DNA of 64,000 bases from a virus. Positions 12,879 through 32,284 of the stretch are shown here, piece by piece. A program made the translations under genes and the position numbers. Location: the IMG/VR virus record IMGVR_UViG_3300032304_002285, positions 96,001-160,000 of that record; one strand, 5' to 3'. The notes beneath the pieces are model-generated. The model had not been told where the DNA came from, made no database searches, and saw only the letters and a list, made by a program, of their open reading frames with translations. Position 1 is the first letter of the stretch; each line of letters starts with the position of its first letter.

Positions 12879-13661
12879 ATGTCAGATGCTACTACTGTTT
12901 ATGCTCCTAATAATTATGGTTATGCTTGGAAGCATTTTTCTACCCATACAACAGTAACAGGGGGTGAAACTTCCCTTGCGACTTGTTATGGGTTGGTGAG
13001 GTTTCCTGAGACAAATGTAACGGGTGAGATCAATAGTAATTATGTAATGGAAATTGTATGGCCTAGTCATGGCATGGTATTAACAAATTTTGTAAAAGTA
13101 AATATGGTTAACAGTTCAGCGAATGTGGTTGATGGAACCTATCCTGTGGTGATGATTCCGGACGCTGATCATTTTGTTATTTCATTTCCAGGATGGATGT
13201 ATAATGGGAATTACACAGGGACGGCTCAGCTTCAACAGCCACTTCCTGGAGTTCCAACTATTTCTGTTGGCGCAACCGATGTTTTGAATTATCAGTCATA
13301 TACTTGGTATTATGATGATAGTTCTTTGGGTTTAGGACCTGTACACAGAACTTGGGACCCATGCGATGTATGTGTAAGTCAATTGCCTCAGCACTCTAGA
13401 TTAAACATCCTTCACACAGAGATGCCAGTTGAATTTACCGTTCCACTTGATGGAGTAATGAGATTTTGGAGTAGCACTGCTTTTTTTTTCCGTGTATCTA
13501 TCAATGGATATGTTTGGTATACTCCGACAAATCCCGCGTTTTATTATGCTTATCCATTGAGGGTAAAGGCTGGTGACGTAATAAAAATGGAGCTTGGAAG
13601 TGGAAGTGGTGACTTTTCTTATGTTTTTCTTCCCTATGAATGGCCCCCAACAACCCCTTAA
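12879..13661 (+). CDS. Virion-associated protein, paralog B
   Basis: Same motif order as 12085-12870; RBS GAGGTG. Confidence 0.6.
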   Translation: MSDATTVYAPNNYGYAWKHFSTHTTVTGGETSLATCYGLVRFPETNVTGEINSNYVMEIVWPSHGMVLTNFVKVNMVNSSANVVDGTYPVVMIPDADHFVISFPGWMYNGNYTGTAQLQQPLPGVPTISVGATDVLNYQSYTWYYDDSSLGLGPVHRTWDPCDVCVSQLPQHSRLNILHTEMPVEFTVPLDGVMRFWSSTAFFFRVSINGYVWYTPTNPAFYYAYPLRVKAGDVIKMELGSGSGDFSYVFLPYEWPPTTP

Positions 13662-24026: not shown

Positions 24027-24096
24027 TTGAGTGGTTGGCTTTATTAGGCTTTGAATAGGCTGCCGAATTATCGGCTTGTAGAAAAAAGGCGTGGGT

Positions 24097-24858
24097 ATGT
24101 CAGACAATATTGCTCGTTTCCCTGTTTCTCTCCTTGATTTGGTTAGTTATTTTAATGGGACCAATCGGTGTAAAGACCCGAATTGTCGTTGCCATTTAGC
24201 TATGGCTAATCACTCTCACCTTGTCGAATCTTCCCCCATTGTCCGGGTCCCTGTCACTCAGAAGCATGCTGTTGCCATTCTTTCTGGCAAGTTTGTTTGT
24301 GAGGACAAAAACTGCAAGTGTCACAAAAGTAGTGCTTATATTGGCGATGCTTTCTATGAATCAATAAATAAATTGGTTTGGAAGTTGGCTAATAAATATG
24401 CAATCACTTGCAAATTAGATGACGTGAAGGACTTGGGAGGTATTTGTTTTAATCGAATCGTCAAGATGCTTCACAAGTATGATCCAAAGTACGAGTTCTC
24501 TACTTGGGTTTGGACGGTTTGTGAAAACATCCTTCGCCATCAGTGCGAGAAGACTAAGAGGTATATTGACGTTTTTCAGCCGGTTGACGATGATACTAAT
24601 TTAATTGGCAAGAAAGAAGGTGATTCTTTTCTTTTTGCTGAAATGGTATCAGCCATTGATGACTTGAAAGAAGAGTTCCCGGCTTGGGAGGGCTTCTTGA
24701 CTGCTTTATTTGGTAATACAAAGGAGGCTGGGTATTGCATGCCCGATGCTGTTTGTATTGCCAAGTCTGCTCGTGTTGCTGGAAGATCTTACAATGAGGT
24801 TCACCTCTTTATGAAAGAGGTTGTGAGACCTTTTTTTTCTGAGAGATTCGGGTTGTGA
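24097..24858 (+). CDS. Phage-encoded sigma70-family factor (region 2 plus a possible region-4 HTH)
   Basis: LVWKLANKY...DDVKDL....F...VKML.KYDPKY.FSTWVW matches region 2 (D.....F.TY pattern). Confidence 0.7.
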   Translation: MSDNIARFPVSLLDLVSYFNGTNRCKDPNCRCHLAMANHSHLVESSPIVRVPVTQKHAVAILSGKFVCEDKNCKCHKSSAYIGDAFYESINKLVWKLANKYAITCKLDDVKDLGGICFNRIVKMLHKYDPKYEFSTWVWTVCENILRHQCEKTKRYIDVFQPVDDDTNLIGKKEGDSFLFAEMVSAIDDLKEEFPAWEGFLTALFGNTKEAGYCMPDAVCIAKSARVAGRSYNEVHLFMKEVVRPFFSERFGL

Positions 24859-24889: not shown

Positions 24890-25648
24890 ATGGGAACGGA
24901 AGAGGCTGAGAAGAGTGTTGTTGCTGGAGCAAAGGTTCATCATTCGGCTACTTGCTGGGGACATTTTGATAAGAAAGCCAAGGAATGCTCACAGTGCTTG
25001 GTTTTCCAAGCGTGTCTGGAGGCTACTGTCAATATTAACACGCTACAGGCTTCTCCTGCTAAGGCAAAGCCGGTAGCTACAGTTACTCCTGCTCCTGTGG
25101 TTATTGCTACTCCTGTGGCTCCTGTTGTTGCTTCTGGGTGTGTTGCGTCCTCTTCTCCTGTCCATAAGAAAGTGGTTAAGCCAGAAATTTTGGCGACTCC
25201 TGTTAGGACGGCTGATGTTGAGGTTGTGAAAAAACAGGAAGAGGATGTTCCTGTTGAAGAAATTAAGATTGAGGTAAAAAAGGAAGAGCCAAAGGTTCTT
25301 GCGATTGTCCCGGAAGTTGCTCCTGTGTTGGTTGTGGAGCCTCAGAAGGATGATTTGGATCAGCTTCCTATCATTAACATGTTGAAGGAAAAGCTTGGAG
25401 TAGAGCCGAATGTTAAGGGTGGGTTTGGTTCTGATGTCTATCTCTTCATTTATGGAGAGGATAAGGGTTTGCAGGTTGTCCTTCAAAAGGCATCTGGTGA
25501 TGCTGTTTTCATGAATAAGGACGGGGTTAAGAAGGAGTTTTCTTATTTTAAGACAGTGAAGGTAAAGGGAGGGAAGCCAACGAAAGAAAGGCTTTCGTAT
25601 CAAGAGAAGACCAAGAAGATTCAAGAAATCTTTGACGCTGTTCTCTAA
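24890..25648 (+). CDS. Hypothetical protein: N-terminal Cys4 finger, Pro/Val/Ala/Glu linker, C-terminal globular domain
   Basis: CWGHFDKKAKECSQCLVFQAC at 24953-25015; RBS GAGGAG. Confidence 0.75.
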   Translation: MGTEEAEKSVVAGAKVHHSATCWGHFDKKAKECSQCLVFQACLEATVNINTLQASPAKAKPVATVTPAPVVIATPVAPVVASGCVASSSPVHKKVVKPEILATPVRTADVEVVKKQEEDVPVEEIKIEVKKEEPKVLAIVPEVAPVLVVEPQKDDLDQLPIINMLKEKLGVEPNVKGGFGSDVYLFIYGEDKGLQVVLQKASGDAVFMNKDGVKKEFSYFKTVKVKGGKPTKERLSYQEKTKKIQEIFDAVL

Positions 25649-29826: not shown

Positions 29827-30768
29827 ATGAGTAGCGTACTGGACAAGATTCGTCGGATGAAGGAACGGGAACCGGTTCGGACTAACTTCAGTTCTTTCCG
29901 GGGTATCTTCCATTCTTGGAAAGATGCTGATAACATTGTCCGTCTGGTTGGGGAAATGACTGAGGTTCATACTCACTATGTTTGTCCCAATCCGAAACGT
30001 GGGGAACGTGGGCTGTGCCAAGGCAAGTCTTTTCAGGGTGAAGGGAAGATTCCCGCTACGGTGAATTGCCTTGATTGGGACATTGCCAAGGAAGAAATGA
30101 AGAAGGATCGTACTTGCCCCTTCTGCAAGCTTTCTGCTTTGGCAAAACAGGCTCTTAAGGAGAACCCCAACGCTGAAGAGAAGAAGTTCTTTGAGGCTCT
30201 TAAGCAGGCTTCTTATGCTCGTGTTGCTTTGAAGTGGAACATTATTGATCGTGATGACCCGTATATCATCAAGGTTGATAATGGGAACGAAATCAAGGTC
30301 CCTGGTTTGAAGATTGCTACGGTTGGAAAGGAATTGTGGCGTGATATCGAAGGTGTCTTCAATCAGTGTGGTTTTGATATCACTGATACTGATGAAGGCA
30401 TTGATATCTGTGTTACCAAGGGGAGTGGGGCTAAGACTACTTATGCAGCTAAGGCTGTATTGTTTGGGAAGCCTCTTTCCGTCAAGGTTACTCCTTTGAC
30501 TGCTGAAGAGCGTTCTTGGGATCTCCATGATTTGAAGACCATTTGTGGTAAGCAAACAGCTTTTGATTTGCTTATGGATGCACTCCATCCTGATCTTCGG
30601 GAGTTGCTGGATCTGAATTCTGGAGAGGAGGAAGCTGCTCCTGCTACTCCTCCTAAGTCTGCTGGGAAGATTCCCCGGAAGATGGCTGAAGAGGAAGAGC
30701 AAGATGATGCTCTTGGTGATGAGGATGAGGATGCAATTGGTGGTTCTTCGGGTGTAAAAAAAAAGTAA
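29827..30768 (+). CDS. T4 gp32-like single-stranded DNA-binding protein (313 aa, acidic tail)
   Basis: IVRLVG, HTHYV, C..., CPFC, NIIDR, G.DI..TK.G...T.Y and acidic C-terminus EEEEQDDALGDEDED; RBS GGGAG before ATG 29827. Confidence 0.7.
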   Translation: MSSVLDKIRRMKEREPVRTNFSSFRGIFHSWKDADNIVRLVGEMTEVHTHYVCPNPKRGERGLCQGKSFQGEGKIPATVNCLDWDIAKEEMKKDRTCPFCKLSALAKQALKENPNAEEKKFFEALKQASYARVALKWNIIDRDDPYIIKVDNGNEIKVPGLKIATVGKELWRDIEGVFNQCGFDITDTDEGIDICVTKGSGAKTTYAAKAVLFGKPLSVKVTPLTAEERSWDLHDLKTICGKQTAFDLLMDALHPDLRELLDLNSGEEEAAPATPPKSAGKIPRKMAEEEEQDDALGDEDEDAIGGSSGVKKK

Positions 30769-31052
30769 CTGAGGTTCAGGAGAAAAAGCCGGAACCGTCA
30801 AGGCAGTCTCAGGTTGCTCCTGTAGAATCTAAGCCTGTTAAGCCAGTTTCGGCTCCTGTTTCCCAGCCAGAACCGGAGAAAGAGATTCCGGTTCTAAAGT
30901 CAGAGTCTTCTGCTAGCTCGAAATCGGCTCTTGATTTCTCAAACATTGATCCTGAAAAAGACTGGGAATGTTTTGGGACTTATGACAAGAAGAGTCATGA
31001 ATGCAAAGAATGCCCATTTGCAGTTAAGTGCGAGCAGAAAAAAGGCGGTTGA
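30765..31052 (+). CDS. Start-less -1-frame extension of the SSB (95 aa, Pro/Glu/Ser linker + Cys4 finger); candidate programmed frameshift product
   Basis: Open -1 frame after the A9G run with no in-frame ATG/GTG/TTG; ends CFGTYDKKSHECKECPFAVKCEQKKGG-stop. Absent from the ORF track. Confidence 0.75.
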   Translation, partial: VTEVQEKKPEPSRQSQVAPVESKPVKPVSAPVSQPEPEKEIPVLKSESSASSKSALDFSNIDPEKDWECFGTYDKKSHECKECPFAVKCEQKKGG

Positions 31053-31067
31053 GATAGAGGTTAAACC

Positions 31068-31095
31068 GGGGGATGGATTGTCCATCCCCTTTTTT
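31068..31095 (+). terminator. Intrinsic terminator
   Basis: GGGGATGGA-ttg-TCCATCCCC followed by T6. Confidence 0.8.
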
Positions 31096-31108
31096 AGGAG
31101 AGTGGTTT

Positions 31109-32284
31109 ATGGCTTCAAATATTCAGATGACTCCTGATCGGCAAAAGCGGTTTGAACGGTTGCGGAAGATTTGTGATACGATTAAGAAGGCTGAAAAAGC
31201 CCAGGATATTATTACCTTTTTGGGTTCTGGTGATACTATTCCTATTGCTCGTTTTTCTTCTGGTTGTCCCGAATTGGATTCTGCATTGGGAGGAGGTTGG
31301 CCAAAGGGGAGGTTTATTGAACTTTTTGGGCCTGAATCTGGCGGTAAATCCACTACCTGCTTGCATGCTATCGCTGAGTTCCAAAAAGATGCTCCGGATG
31401 AAGATGTTGCTTTGGTTGACACTGAGTTTTCATTTGATGAAGAGTATGCTAGGAATTTGGGTGTAGATACTGATTTGCTTCTTGTGAATCAGCCTGAAAG
31501 TGGTGAACAGGCTCTTAAGGTTGTTCGTCATTTGATTCAGCTTGGGGTTGGTCTTATCATTGTCGATTCGGTTGCTGCTTTGACTCCTCAGGCTGAGCTT
31601 GATGGTGACATTGGCGATCAACATGTTGGGCAACAAGCTCGCTTGATGTCTCAAACAATGCGAATTCTTTGCGCTGAGGCTGGTAAGCGGGGTACTACTA
31701 TCTTTTGGACCAATCAGATGCGTGAAAAGATTGGTGTCATGTATGGGGATAAAACAACAACTCCCGGTGGTAGAGCCTTGCGCCATTACGCTTCTATTCG
31801 GGTGAATATCTCTTCTATTTCAAAAGAGAAGGATGGAGAGATTATTGTTGGGAGCAAGGTTCAGGCAGATGTAAAGAAGAACAAGACTGCTGCTCCTTTC
31901 AAGAAGGCTATCTTCTACATTTCCTTTGGAACAGGAATTGATCGGGTTGCTGCTATTTGCGATAAGGCAATTGCGATTAAGGTTGTTACAAAGAGAGGGG
32001 CAAAAATCTCTTATAAGGATCAAGTTGTTGGAGCAGGCAGAAAAGACTTCATTGATTTTGCTAAGAAAACCCCACAATTCTTTGCAGAATTGGAGGAGGC
32101 TGTAAAAAATGCTCCTAAAGATCCGGTAGATGCTTTGGAGGCAGAGGAAGGGGAATCTGCTGTTGCTATCAAAAAGCCAAAGGGGATGATTAAGAGAACC
32201 CCTGTGACTTCTTTAGAGGAGGCTCTTCCCGATGGTAGCGTTAAACAAGTAGATGCGGAATTGGTGGAGGAACAAGATGCCTGA
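31109..32284 (+). CDS. recA: RecA recombinase
   Basis: LDSALGGGWPKGR.IELFGPESGGKST, IIVDSVAAL, QARLMSQ, NQ.REKIGVMYG...TTPGG.AL.HYASIR, KNKTAAPFK. Confidence 0.97.
   Translation: MASNIQMTPDRQKRFERLRKICDTIKKAEKAQDIITFLGSGDTIPIARFSSGCPELDSALGGGWPKGRFIELFGPESGGKSTTCLHAIAEFQKDAPDEDVALVDTEFSFDEEYARNLGVDTDLLLVNQPESGEQALKVVRHLIQLGVGLIIVDSVAALTPQAELDGDIGDQHVGQQARLMSQTMRILCAEAGKRGTTIFWTNQMREKIGVMYGDKTTTPGGRALRHYASIRVNISSISKEKDGEIIVGSKVQADVKKNKTAAPFKKAIFYISFGTGIDRVAAICDKAIAIKVVTKRGAKISYKDQVVGAGRKDFIDFAKKTPQFFAELEEAVKNAPKDPVDALEAEEGESAVAIKKPKGMIKRTPVTSLEEALPDGSVKQVDAELVEEQDA

What the first reader, a model, noticed from the sequence alone, without database searches (positions are those of the whole stretch)
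30756..31095. Probable programmed -1 frameshift (or A9 slippage) producing a long SSB isoform with a C-terminal Cys4 finger
The SSB ends GTA AAA AAA AAG TAA, with the in-frame heptamer A AAA AAG (30759-30765) inside an A9 run. The -1 frame is open for 95 codons to TGA 31050-31052, has no ATG/GTG/TTG and is closed upstream by TGA at 30726. It encodes a linker and a Cys4 motif paralogous to 24953-25015. A candidate stimulatory hairpin starts 4-7 nt downstream (TGAGGTTC 30770-30777 with GAACC-G-TCA 30792-30800). The operon terminator (31068-31095) follows the extension's stop, not the SSB stop. Established: A AAA AAG with a 3' stem-loop is the E. coli dnaX-type -1 signal, and runs of 9 or more A permit transcriptional slippage. 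Inference: two SSB isoforms (313 aa and about 408 aa); the longer one buries the acidic partner-binding tail and adds a finger. I know of no described recoding of a gp32-like SSB.
Basis: partly seen in the sequence, partly recalled or inferred. Interest (0 to 1): 0.85.

Follow-up and report, generated by a model that had tools for sequence, protein, structure and literature searches.

The report
Conserved frameshift extends phage SSB
The single-stranded-DNA-binding protein gene of this huge uncultured phage ends in a run of nine A's where a one-base backward slip adds a 95-residue tail with a four-cysteine module; dozens of related phages keep the same arrangement, so it looks like a real and apparently undescribed case of programmed recoding in a replication gene.

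Summary
The gp32-like SSB (29827-30768) ends GTA AAA AAA AAG TAA. The -1 frame is open for 95 codons to TGA 31050, has no start codon, and ends in a Cys4 module.

It is not an assembly artefact. Of 44 distinct related loci with a split gene, 43 carry an in-phase X_XXY_YYZ heptamer in the short 0/-1 overlap. Eleven distinct relatives carry the same module fused in frame, and the two states interchange at least 7 times on the SSB tree.

Twelve loci use short sites: A6-A8, G_GGA_AAC, G_GGA_AAA, C_CCA_AAA or C_CCT_TTC. All are in phase and tend to be followed by stronger hairpins, which points to ribosomal -1 frameshifting.

The 31 loci with A9 or A10, including this window, have weaker hairpins, and about two thirds also close the +1 frame within 12 nt. 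That pattern fits RNA-polymerase slippage. The window's own hairpin is not significant (z -1.35).

Both routes give the same 408-aa protein, and I cannot separate them here. I found no published description. The scan has noted the same recoding in two other genomes. I class it as a new member of a known kind.

The parts
29827..30768 (+). gp32-like SSB gene in the 0 frame; the short isoform is 313 aa
   Evidence: ORF. It hits the PHROG 1192 SSB family at 2.6e-11. The AF2 core model has pLDDT 84, and its best PDB matches are the RB69 and T4 gp32 cores at probability 1.0. There are 114 homologues.
30726..30728 (+). TGA that closes the -1 frame upstream and bounds the 37-nt shift window
30756..30765 (+). 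Slippery site: an A9 run followed by G, giving tandem in-phase heptamers A_AAA_AAA and A_AAA_AAG
   Evidence: An equivalent in-phase heptamer is present in 43 of 44 distinct relatives.
30766..30772 (+). TAACTGA double stop: TAA closes the 0 frame (30766-30768) and TGA closes the +1 frame (30770-30772)
   Evidence: The +1 frame closes within 12 nt in 19 of the 29 loci the script scored as A9/A10, against 14% for background positions.
30765..31052 (+). -1 frame extension of 95 codons plus TGA: a Pro/Val/Glu-rich linker followed by the FDFSxIDP-Cys4 module
   Evidence: It has no start codon of its own.
30770..30800 (+). Candidate stem-loop 4 nt after the heptamer
   Evidence: It is the minimum-free-energy fold at -10.7 kcal/mol, but z is only -1.35 and it ranks 0.17 against background from the same locus. 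Significance is not shown.
30909..31049 (+). Conserved C-terminal module. The four invariant Cys lie within 30969-31031.
   Evidence: Alignment A2 holds 54 sequences; the four Cys are invariant, and Gly and Glu nearly so. The profile finds 137 proteins. The AF2 model has pLDDT 77.
31068..31095 (+). Intrinsic terminator after the stop of the extension and before recA (31100-32284)
24953..25015 (+). Second copy of the Cys4 module, at the N-terminus of ORF 24890-25648

Best explanation
The SSB gene is deliberately recoded. Most products stop at TAA 30766 and give a 313-aa SSB with an acidic tail. A fraction enters the -1 frame on the A9 run and gives a 408-aa SSB that continues through a flexible linker into a four-cysteine, probably metal-binding, module.

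Within the family I see two flavours of the signal:

1. Short canonical heptamers, tending to stronger downstream hairpins. These fit ribosomal -1 frameshifting.
2. A9 or A10 runs with weaker hairpins and, in about two thirds, stops in both non-target frames just after the run.

The window belongs to the second flavour. My best guess for this window is that RNA-polymerase slippage, making A10 transcripts, is the main route, and that ribosomal -1 slippage on the same tandem heptamers also contributes. All routes give the identical protein (...GVKKKVTEV...).

What is shown: the signal, its conservation, and that the -1 frame codes for protein. What is inferred: which machine slips, the ratio of the two isoforms, and what the module does. 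I suggest the module docks the long isoform to a partner; this is a guess.
For: - That recoding is real: 50 of 91 fetched loci (44 distinct) need a -1 shift to reach the Cys4 module, and 43 of the 44 have an in-phase X_XXY_YYZ heptamer in the overlap.
- 15 loci (11 distinct) are fused in frame. Fused and split states interchange at least 7 times on the SSB tree.
- The module is conserved, with four invariant Cys in 54 sequences.
- The -1 ORF has no start codon.
- For the A9 flavour: 28 of 43 sites are exactly A9 and 3 are A10, longer than ribosomal slippage needs.
- The +1 frame closes within 12 nt in 19 of 29 scored A9/A10 loci, against 1 of 14 other sites and 14% background (p 4.7e-5). Different sequences achieve this (TAACTGA, TGATTGA, TGAGTGA, TAACTAA).
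- Downstream folding is weaker at A9/A10 loci (mean -9.7 kcal/mol) than at short sites (-15.0).
- The window's hairpin has z -1.35, and the close A9 relatives L094, L078 and L040 have none.
- L049 has an A9 run but needs +1. Only slippage in both directions, or an error, explains that.
- The phage encodes tRNA-Lys(CUU). In E. coli this tRNA is known to lower slippage at A_AAA_AAG (Tsuchihashi and Brown 1992, from my own knowledge).
Against: - The run is also a perfect tandem ribosomal slippery site, followed directly by a stop codon and by a modest hairpin at a plausible 4-nt spacing.
- Relatives with G_GGA_AAC, G_GGA_AAA, C_CCA_AAA, C_CCT_TTC and A6-A8 sites show that this family does use ribosomal frameshifting.
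- The +1-frame stop could be a by-product of conserved [VL]-x-[DE] residues in the -1 frame.
- A9 loci are related to each other, so the counts are not fully independent.
- There are no transcript or protein data.
- The host and the transcribing polymerase are unknown.
Confidence: 0.5

Rival explanations
1. This is dnaX-type ribosomal -1 frameshifting, and it is the main or only route in this window too. tRNA-Lys slips on A_AAA_AAA or A_AAA_AAG, helped by the adjacent stop codon and the stem-loop at 30770-30800.
For: - In-phase tandem heptamers.
- All 12 loci with short or non-homopolymer sites are in phase, and the non-A sites have no out-of-phase heptamer.
- Downstream structure is enriched across the family: 23% of loci fall in the lowest 5% tail (Wilcoxon p 0.008).
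- Strong hairpins start 6 nt after the heptamer in L002 (z -2.9) and L062 (z -5.7).
- The 0-frame stop directly follows the heptamer in most loci.
Against: - The window's hairpin is not significant, and its nearest A9 relatives do not conserve one.
- Ribosomal slippage does not need nine A's, yet A9 dominates.
- The stop in the +1 frame just after the run is unexplained by this reading.
- No upstream Shine-Dalgarno-like enrichment (median rank 0.43).
- The phage carries tRNA-Lys(CUU).
Confidence: 0.38
2. Length variation of the homopolymer in the DNA. Either this is an A9/A10 assembly or sequencing error, or a phase-variable tract, so that each genome makes only one form.
For: L054 is the A10 allele of the usual A9 arrangement and reads as one continuous ORF. 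L049 has an A9 run in the +1 register. Together these show that tract length does change between genomes or assemblies.
Against: - 44 distinct assemblies from many samples share the same -1 relation.
- Sites without any homopolymer (L037, L045, L060, L090) keep it too.
- Random homopolymer errors would give +1 as often as -1, but the ratio observed is 50 to 1.
Confidence: 0.07
3. The downstream ORF is a separate small gene, or a decaying remnant of a formerly fused gene, and is not joined to the SSB.
For: Gene callers list many of the -1 ORFs as stand-alone proteins of 50-150 aa.
Against: - There is no ATG, GTG or TTG in the window's -1 ORF.
- The module is under strong purifying selection.
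- The slippery site always sits in the short overlap.
- Natural fusions show that the module belongs to the SSB.
Confidence: 0.03

Closest known systems
E. coli dnaX tau/gamma programmed -1 ribosomal frameshift (A_AAA_AAG, downstream stem-loop, upstream SD-like element)
   Same: It has the same heptamer and the same logic: one replication gene yields two isoforms that differ in a C-terminal interaction region. Relatives with short sites have a strong stem-loop about 6 nt downstream.
   Different: Here the shift extends the protein rather than truncating it. No upstream SD-like element was detected. The window's stem-loop is weak. The gene is an SSB, not a clamp-loader subunit.
Thermus thermophilus dnaX, Shigella mxiE/spa and IS-element transcriptional slippage on A9/T9 runs
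   Same: There is a run of exactly nine A's, both non-target frames are closed straight after the run, and no strong RNA structure is needed. In Thermus dnaX both shifted frames likewise end quickly.
   Different: No transcript data exist here. The same gene family also uses non-homopolymer heptamers that RNA polymerase cannot slip on. No upstream nascent-RNA hairpin was found.
T4 and RB69 gp32
   Same: The core fold matches (Foldseek probability 1.0). Conserved His/Cys metal-site residues are present (H50, C81, C97, C100). The C-terminal tail is disordered and acidic.
   Different: Sequence identity is about 14%. No recoding is known for gp32. gp32 has no C-terminal Cys4 module.
Tail assembly chaperone G/GT -1 frameshift of tailed phages
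   Same: It is a conserved phage -1 frameshift that adds a C-terminal domain to a fraction of the product.
   Different: The gene, the functional class and the module added are all different.

Membership tests
Programmed -1 ribosomal frameshift (dnaX type) | An in-phase X_XXY_YYZ heptamer inside the 0/-1 overlap | tested here: met
   The heptamers are at 30756-30762 and 30759-30765. 43 of 44 distinct relatives have one.
Programmed -1 ribosomal frameshift (dnaX type) | A stimulatory RNA structure 5-9 nt downstream | tested here: inconclusive
   In the window the fold is -10.7 kcal/mol with z -1.35. Structure is enriched across the family (p 0.008) and is strong at short sites. The nearest A9 relatives have none.
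Programmed -1 ribosomal frameshift (dnaX type) | An upstream Shine-Dalgarno-like stimulator | tested here: not met
   Anti-SD pairing energy 4-20 nt upstream has a median rank of 0.43 against background. The host's anti-SD sequence is unknown.
Programmed -1 ribosomal frameshift (dnaX type) | A -1 ORF that codes for protein and has no start of its own, conserved in relatives | tested here: met
Programmed -1 ribosomal frameshift (dnaX type) | Two protein products from a single mRNA species | not testable with these tools
   This needs a western blot or mass spectrometry, together with transcript sequencing.
Programmed transcriptional slippage | A homopolymer run of 9 or more A or T in the coding strand | tested here: met
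   A9 at 30756-30764. 31 of 43 related sites are A9 or A10.
Programmed transcriptional slippage | The frames reached by slippage in the wrong direction are closed at once | tested here: met
   In the window, TGA at 30770-30772 closes the +1 frame. The same holds within 12 nt in 19 of 29 scored A9/A10 loci, against 14% background.
Programmed transcriptional slippage | Transcripts with heterogeneous run length | not testable with these tools
   No RNA data are available.
gp32-like SSB | The OB-fold core of gp32 with a Cys/His metal site | tested here: met
   Foldseek matches 2a1k and 1gpc at probability 1.0. H50, C81, C97 and C100 are invariant.
gp32-like SSB | Binding of single-stranded DNA | not testable with these tools
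   This needs a biochemical assay.

The most novel reading that the evidence does not exclude
One phage gene family has repeatedly swapped between two recoding machines to keep the same pair of SSB isoforms: ribosomal -1 frameshifting at short heptamers with hairpins, and RNA-polymerase slippage at A9 runs with double stops. The isoform ratio may be tuned during infection by the phage's own tRNA-Lys genes. The Cys4 module would be a portable docking tag, also present on ORF 24890-25648 and on HEAT and TPR proteins, that ties the long SSB to a shared partner in the replication compartment.
Probability: 0.3. Interest if true: 0.8.

Novelty: new member of a known kind. Interest (0 to 1): 0.64.

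Why it matters
- SSBs are the hubs of replication and recombination, and their C-terminal tips decide which partners they recruit. A conserved mechanism that makes two SSBs with different C-termini from one gene would be a new layer of replisome control in huge phages.
- It would add a replication gene to the short list of conserved prokaryotic recoding events.
- The family offers dozens of natural variants: short heptamer with hairpin, A9 with double stop, and plain fusions. These could be used to compare ribosomal and transcriptional slippage in a single gene context.
- Gene callers currently split or truncate this gene in most of these genomes, so annotations need correcting.

Tried and rejected
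- GenBank phages: tblastn with the SSB and with the extension found no match. The first IMG/VR scan with the single protein also found nothing; the alignment-based scan worked.
- Pfam: no hit for the extension. Nine of 54 modules weakly resemble the CxxCPxxxxC stretch of DDE_Tnp_1_6 and one resembles WhiB. I treat these as motif likeness only.
- Structure and profile searches for the module gave nothing usable: a PDB sequence profile, Foldseek on the 47-aa model and the ESM Atlas.
- Upstream SD-like stimulator: not enriched.
- A stem enclosing the A-run (GGCTCA...TGAGCC and similar), which I noticed by eye: not significant overall (mean z -0.5). I dropped it.
- The window's HEAT protein against the HEAT-Cys4 protein P0120: no real similarity. 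The P0120 contig is too short to give context.
- DNA of the two closest homologues, P0002 and P0003, could not be fetched.
- Literature: four searches and the PRFect paper gave no description of SSB recoding.

Full report
**What is in the window**

The record is an IMG/VR virus contig of 180,758 bp, estimated about 51% complete. The window covers 96001-160000 of it.

The ORF 29827-30768 encodes a 313-aa protein.
- It matches the PHROG SSB family 1192 at 2.6e-11.
- Its AlphaFold model has pLDDT 84 overall, with residues 269-312 disordered.
- The only significant PDB matches of that model are the RB69 and T4 gp32 cores, at Foldseek probability 1.0.
- His50, Cys81, Cys97 and Cys100 are invariant in an alignment of 32 homologues.

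It is therefore a distant gp32-like SSB. It sits in a replication and repair block that holds a split helicase, a UDG, a HEAT protein, the SSB, RecA and a flap endonuclease.

The gene ends GGT GTA AAA AAA AAG TAA.
- The A9 run is at 30756-30764 and holds two in-phase slippery heptamers.
- The -1 frame is closed upstream at TGA 30726. After the slip it runs 95 codons from 30765 to TGA 31050.
- It contains no ATG, GTG or TTG ORF.
- It ends in a conserved ...DFSNIDPEKDWECFG... stretch with four Cys.
- An intrinsic terminator follows at 31068-31095. recA starts at 31100.

A slip on either heptamer, or an A10 transcript, gives the same 408-aa product. This is the only A9 run inside a coding region of the record.

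**Is it more than chance or an error?**

The SSB has 114 homologues in the protein collection. Most end in ...KK[KNSTDA], and about 12 carry the Cys4 motif fused in frame. I fetched 91 related loci from IMG/VR and from metagenomes. Among those with a complete 3' end:
- 50 need a -1 shift to reach the Cys4 module;
- 15 are fused in frame;
- 1 needs a +1 shift;
- a few distant ones lack the module.

After removing duplicates there are 44 distinct -1 loci. Forty-three have an in-phase X_XXY_YYZ heptamer inside the short overlap between the upstream -1-frame stop and the 0-frame stop. That overlap is often only 10-50 nt.

The slippery sites are A9 (28 loci), A10 (3), A7 (6), A8 (1) and A6 (1). Four loci have sites that are not homopolymers: G_GGA_AAC (L037), G_GGA_AAA (L090), C_CCA_AAA (L045) and C_CCT_TTC (L060). 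All twelve short sites are in phase, and the non-A sites have no out-of-phase heptamer. A homopolymer error cannot produce these.

On a maximum-likelihood tree of 58 SSB cores, the split state is spread over the whole family, with pairwise identity down to about 40%. Fused and split states change at least 7 times.

The residues encoded by the slippery site are not conserved: the short isoform ends ...VKKK...SEGNA...TPKA or ...DTPF in different lineages. Slipperiness is conserved, so selection acts on the nucleotides. The extension's C-terminal module has four invariant Cys and a nearly invariant Gly and Glu in 54 distinct sequences. The closest relative for which DNA was available (L094, 67% identity) has the identical GTA AAA AAA AAG TAA followed by a -1 ORF, a terminator and recA.

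**Which machine slips?**

Evidence for the ribosome comes from the short sites. They are canonical heptamers in the correct phase, and they tend to be followed by stronger structure.
- The mean minimum free energy of the 45 nt downstream is -15.0 kcal/mol, against -9.7 at A9/A10 loci.
- L002 has z -2.9 and L062 has z -5.7, with stems starting 6 nt after the heptamer.
- Across the family, 23% of loci fall in the lowest 5% of background from their own locus (Wilcoxon p 0.008).

The A9/A10 loci look different.
- The run is longer than a ribosome needs and is sharply peaked at nine.
- Hairpins are weak or absent. The window has z -1.35. The near A9 relatives L094, L078 and L040 have z -0.16, +0.26 and +0.45.
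- The +1 frame is also closed within 12 nt of the run in 19 of 29 scored loci. This compares with 1 of 14 in the other class (which the script let include two A9 loci) and 14% at background positions (Mann-Whitney p 4.7e-5).
- Different sequences achieve this closure: TAACTGA in the window, and TGATTGA, TGAGTGA, TAACTAA and TAATTGA elsewhere.

Closing both non-target frames is what one expects if transcripts of n-1 as well as n+1 A's are made, as in Thermus dnaX (my own knowledge). L049 has an A9 run but reaches the module only by +1, and L054 is an A10 allele that reads straight through. Both show that the tract length does move.

The phage also encodes tRNA-Lys(CUU) as well as tRNA-Lys(UUU). 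In E. coli, supplying tRNA-Lys(CUU) lowers slippage at A_AAA_AAG (my own knowledge).

I therefore put polymerase slippage slightly ahead of ribosomal slippage for this window, at about 0.50 against 0.38. Both probably contribute, and I am about 0.9 confident that the recoding itself is real.

There are three caveats. The loci are related, so the counts are not independent events. The +1 stop could follow from [VL]-x-[DE] residues in the -1 frame. There are no RNA or protein data.

**What the extension is**

It has a Pro/Val/Glu-rich linker. Some relatives (L005, L044, L040, L078, L075, L094) carry one to three extra zinc ribbons in the linker. The linker is followed by a module of about 45 aa.

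A profile of the module finds 137 proteins.
- Most are the -1 ORFs, mis-called as small genes.
- It also occurs as one to three tandem C-terminal copies on HEAT plus cNMP-binding proteins and on TPR proteins, one of which has an Mrr nuclease domain.
- A second copy sits at the N-terminus of ORF 24890-25648 in this window.

The AlphaFold model is a small helical knuckle with pLDDT 77 and no PDB match. Pfam shows only motif-level likeness to the CxxCPxxxxC stretch of a DDE transposase family. The C-x2-C-x5-C spacing recalls the Fe-S ligands of WhiB and AddB/Cas4 (my own knowledge, not tested). The function remains unknown. A portable metal-dependent docking tag is my working guess.

Naturally fused lineages keep an internal acidic-aromatic motif. 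The claim that the extension inactivates the acidic tail is therefore unproven. In L060 the slippery heptamer encodes a terminal Pro-Phe like the bacterial SSB tip, so there the free C-terminus probably does matter.

**Comparison and novelty**

The mechanism is of a known kind: dnaX-type -1 frameshifting or Thermus/IS-type transcriptional slippage. The gene and the module are new to it. Four literature searches and the PRFect paper gave no description of SSB recoding. GenBank phages hold no relative. The scan has seen the same arrangement in two other genomes, with follow-ups that reached the same reading. My counts, the phase test and the split into two regimes were computed independently here.

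Noticed in passing
G000:C1:5701-5775 and 72868-73271 (outside the window): The phage record carries 31 tRNA genes, including Lys(CUU), Lys(UUU) and a tRNA with a CUA anticodon (a possible amber suppressor), and also a tmRNA gene. Several relatives end the short SSB with TAG, so suppression could matter there.
   Followed up: no
window 24890-25648: This 252-aa ORF has the same Cys4 module at its N-terminus, followed by a Pro/Val-rich linker and a C-terminal domain with no Pfam hit. It lies between a sigma-70 region-2-like gene (24091-24858) and the N-half of the split helicase.
   Followed up: partly
P0120, P0137, P0154, P0176: The Cys4 module occurs as two or three tandem C-terminal copies on HEAT plus cNMP-binding proteins and on TPR proteins, one of which has an Mrr_cat nuclease domain. 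It looks like a portable module of unknown function.
   Followed up: partly
L005:3476-4149, L044, L040, L078, L075, L094:2187-2633: In some relatives the frameshift extension is far longer (150-235 aa) and holds extra double zinc-ribbon domains (Pfam DZR) before the Cys4 module.
   Followed up: partly
L060:2440-2475; L077, L084, L020: Some SSBs of the family end in ...PF, like the bacterial SSB C-terminal tip. In L060 the slippery heptamer C_CCT_TTC itself encodes that terminal Pro-Phe, so the frameshift would mask the tip.
   Followed up: no
L035:1250-1312: This is the only split locus without a canonical heptamer. The 0 frame ends GCG AAG TGA and the overlap is 130 nt. It may be a non-canonical slip site or an indel.
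   Followed up: no
L050:2417-3100: This A10 locus is in the normal -1 register, but a stop codon lies inside the Cys4 module (CKGCP*REEC). It may be a decaying copy or a sequencing error.
   Followed up: no
window 13481-13489: A T9 run lies in frame inside ORF 12879-13661 (it encodes ...AFFFR...). I saw no sign of an alternative frame.
   Followed up: no
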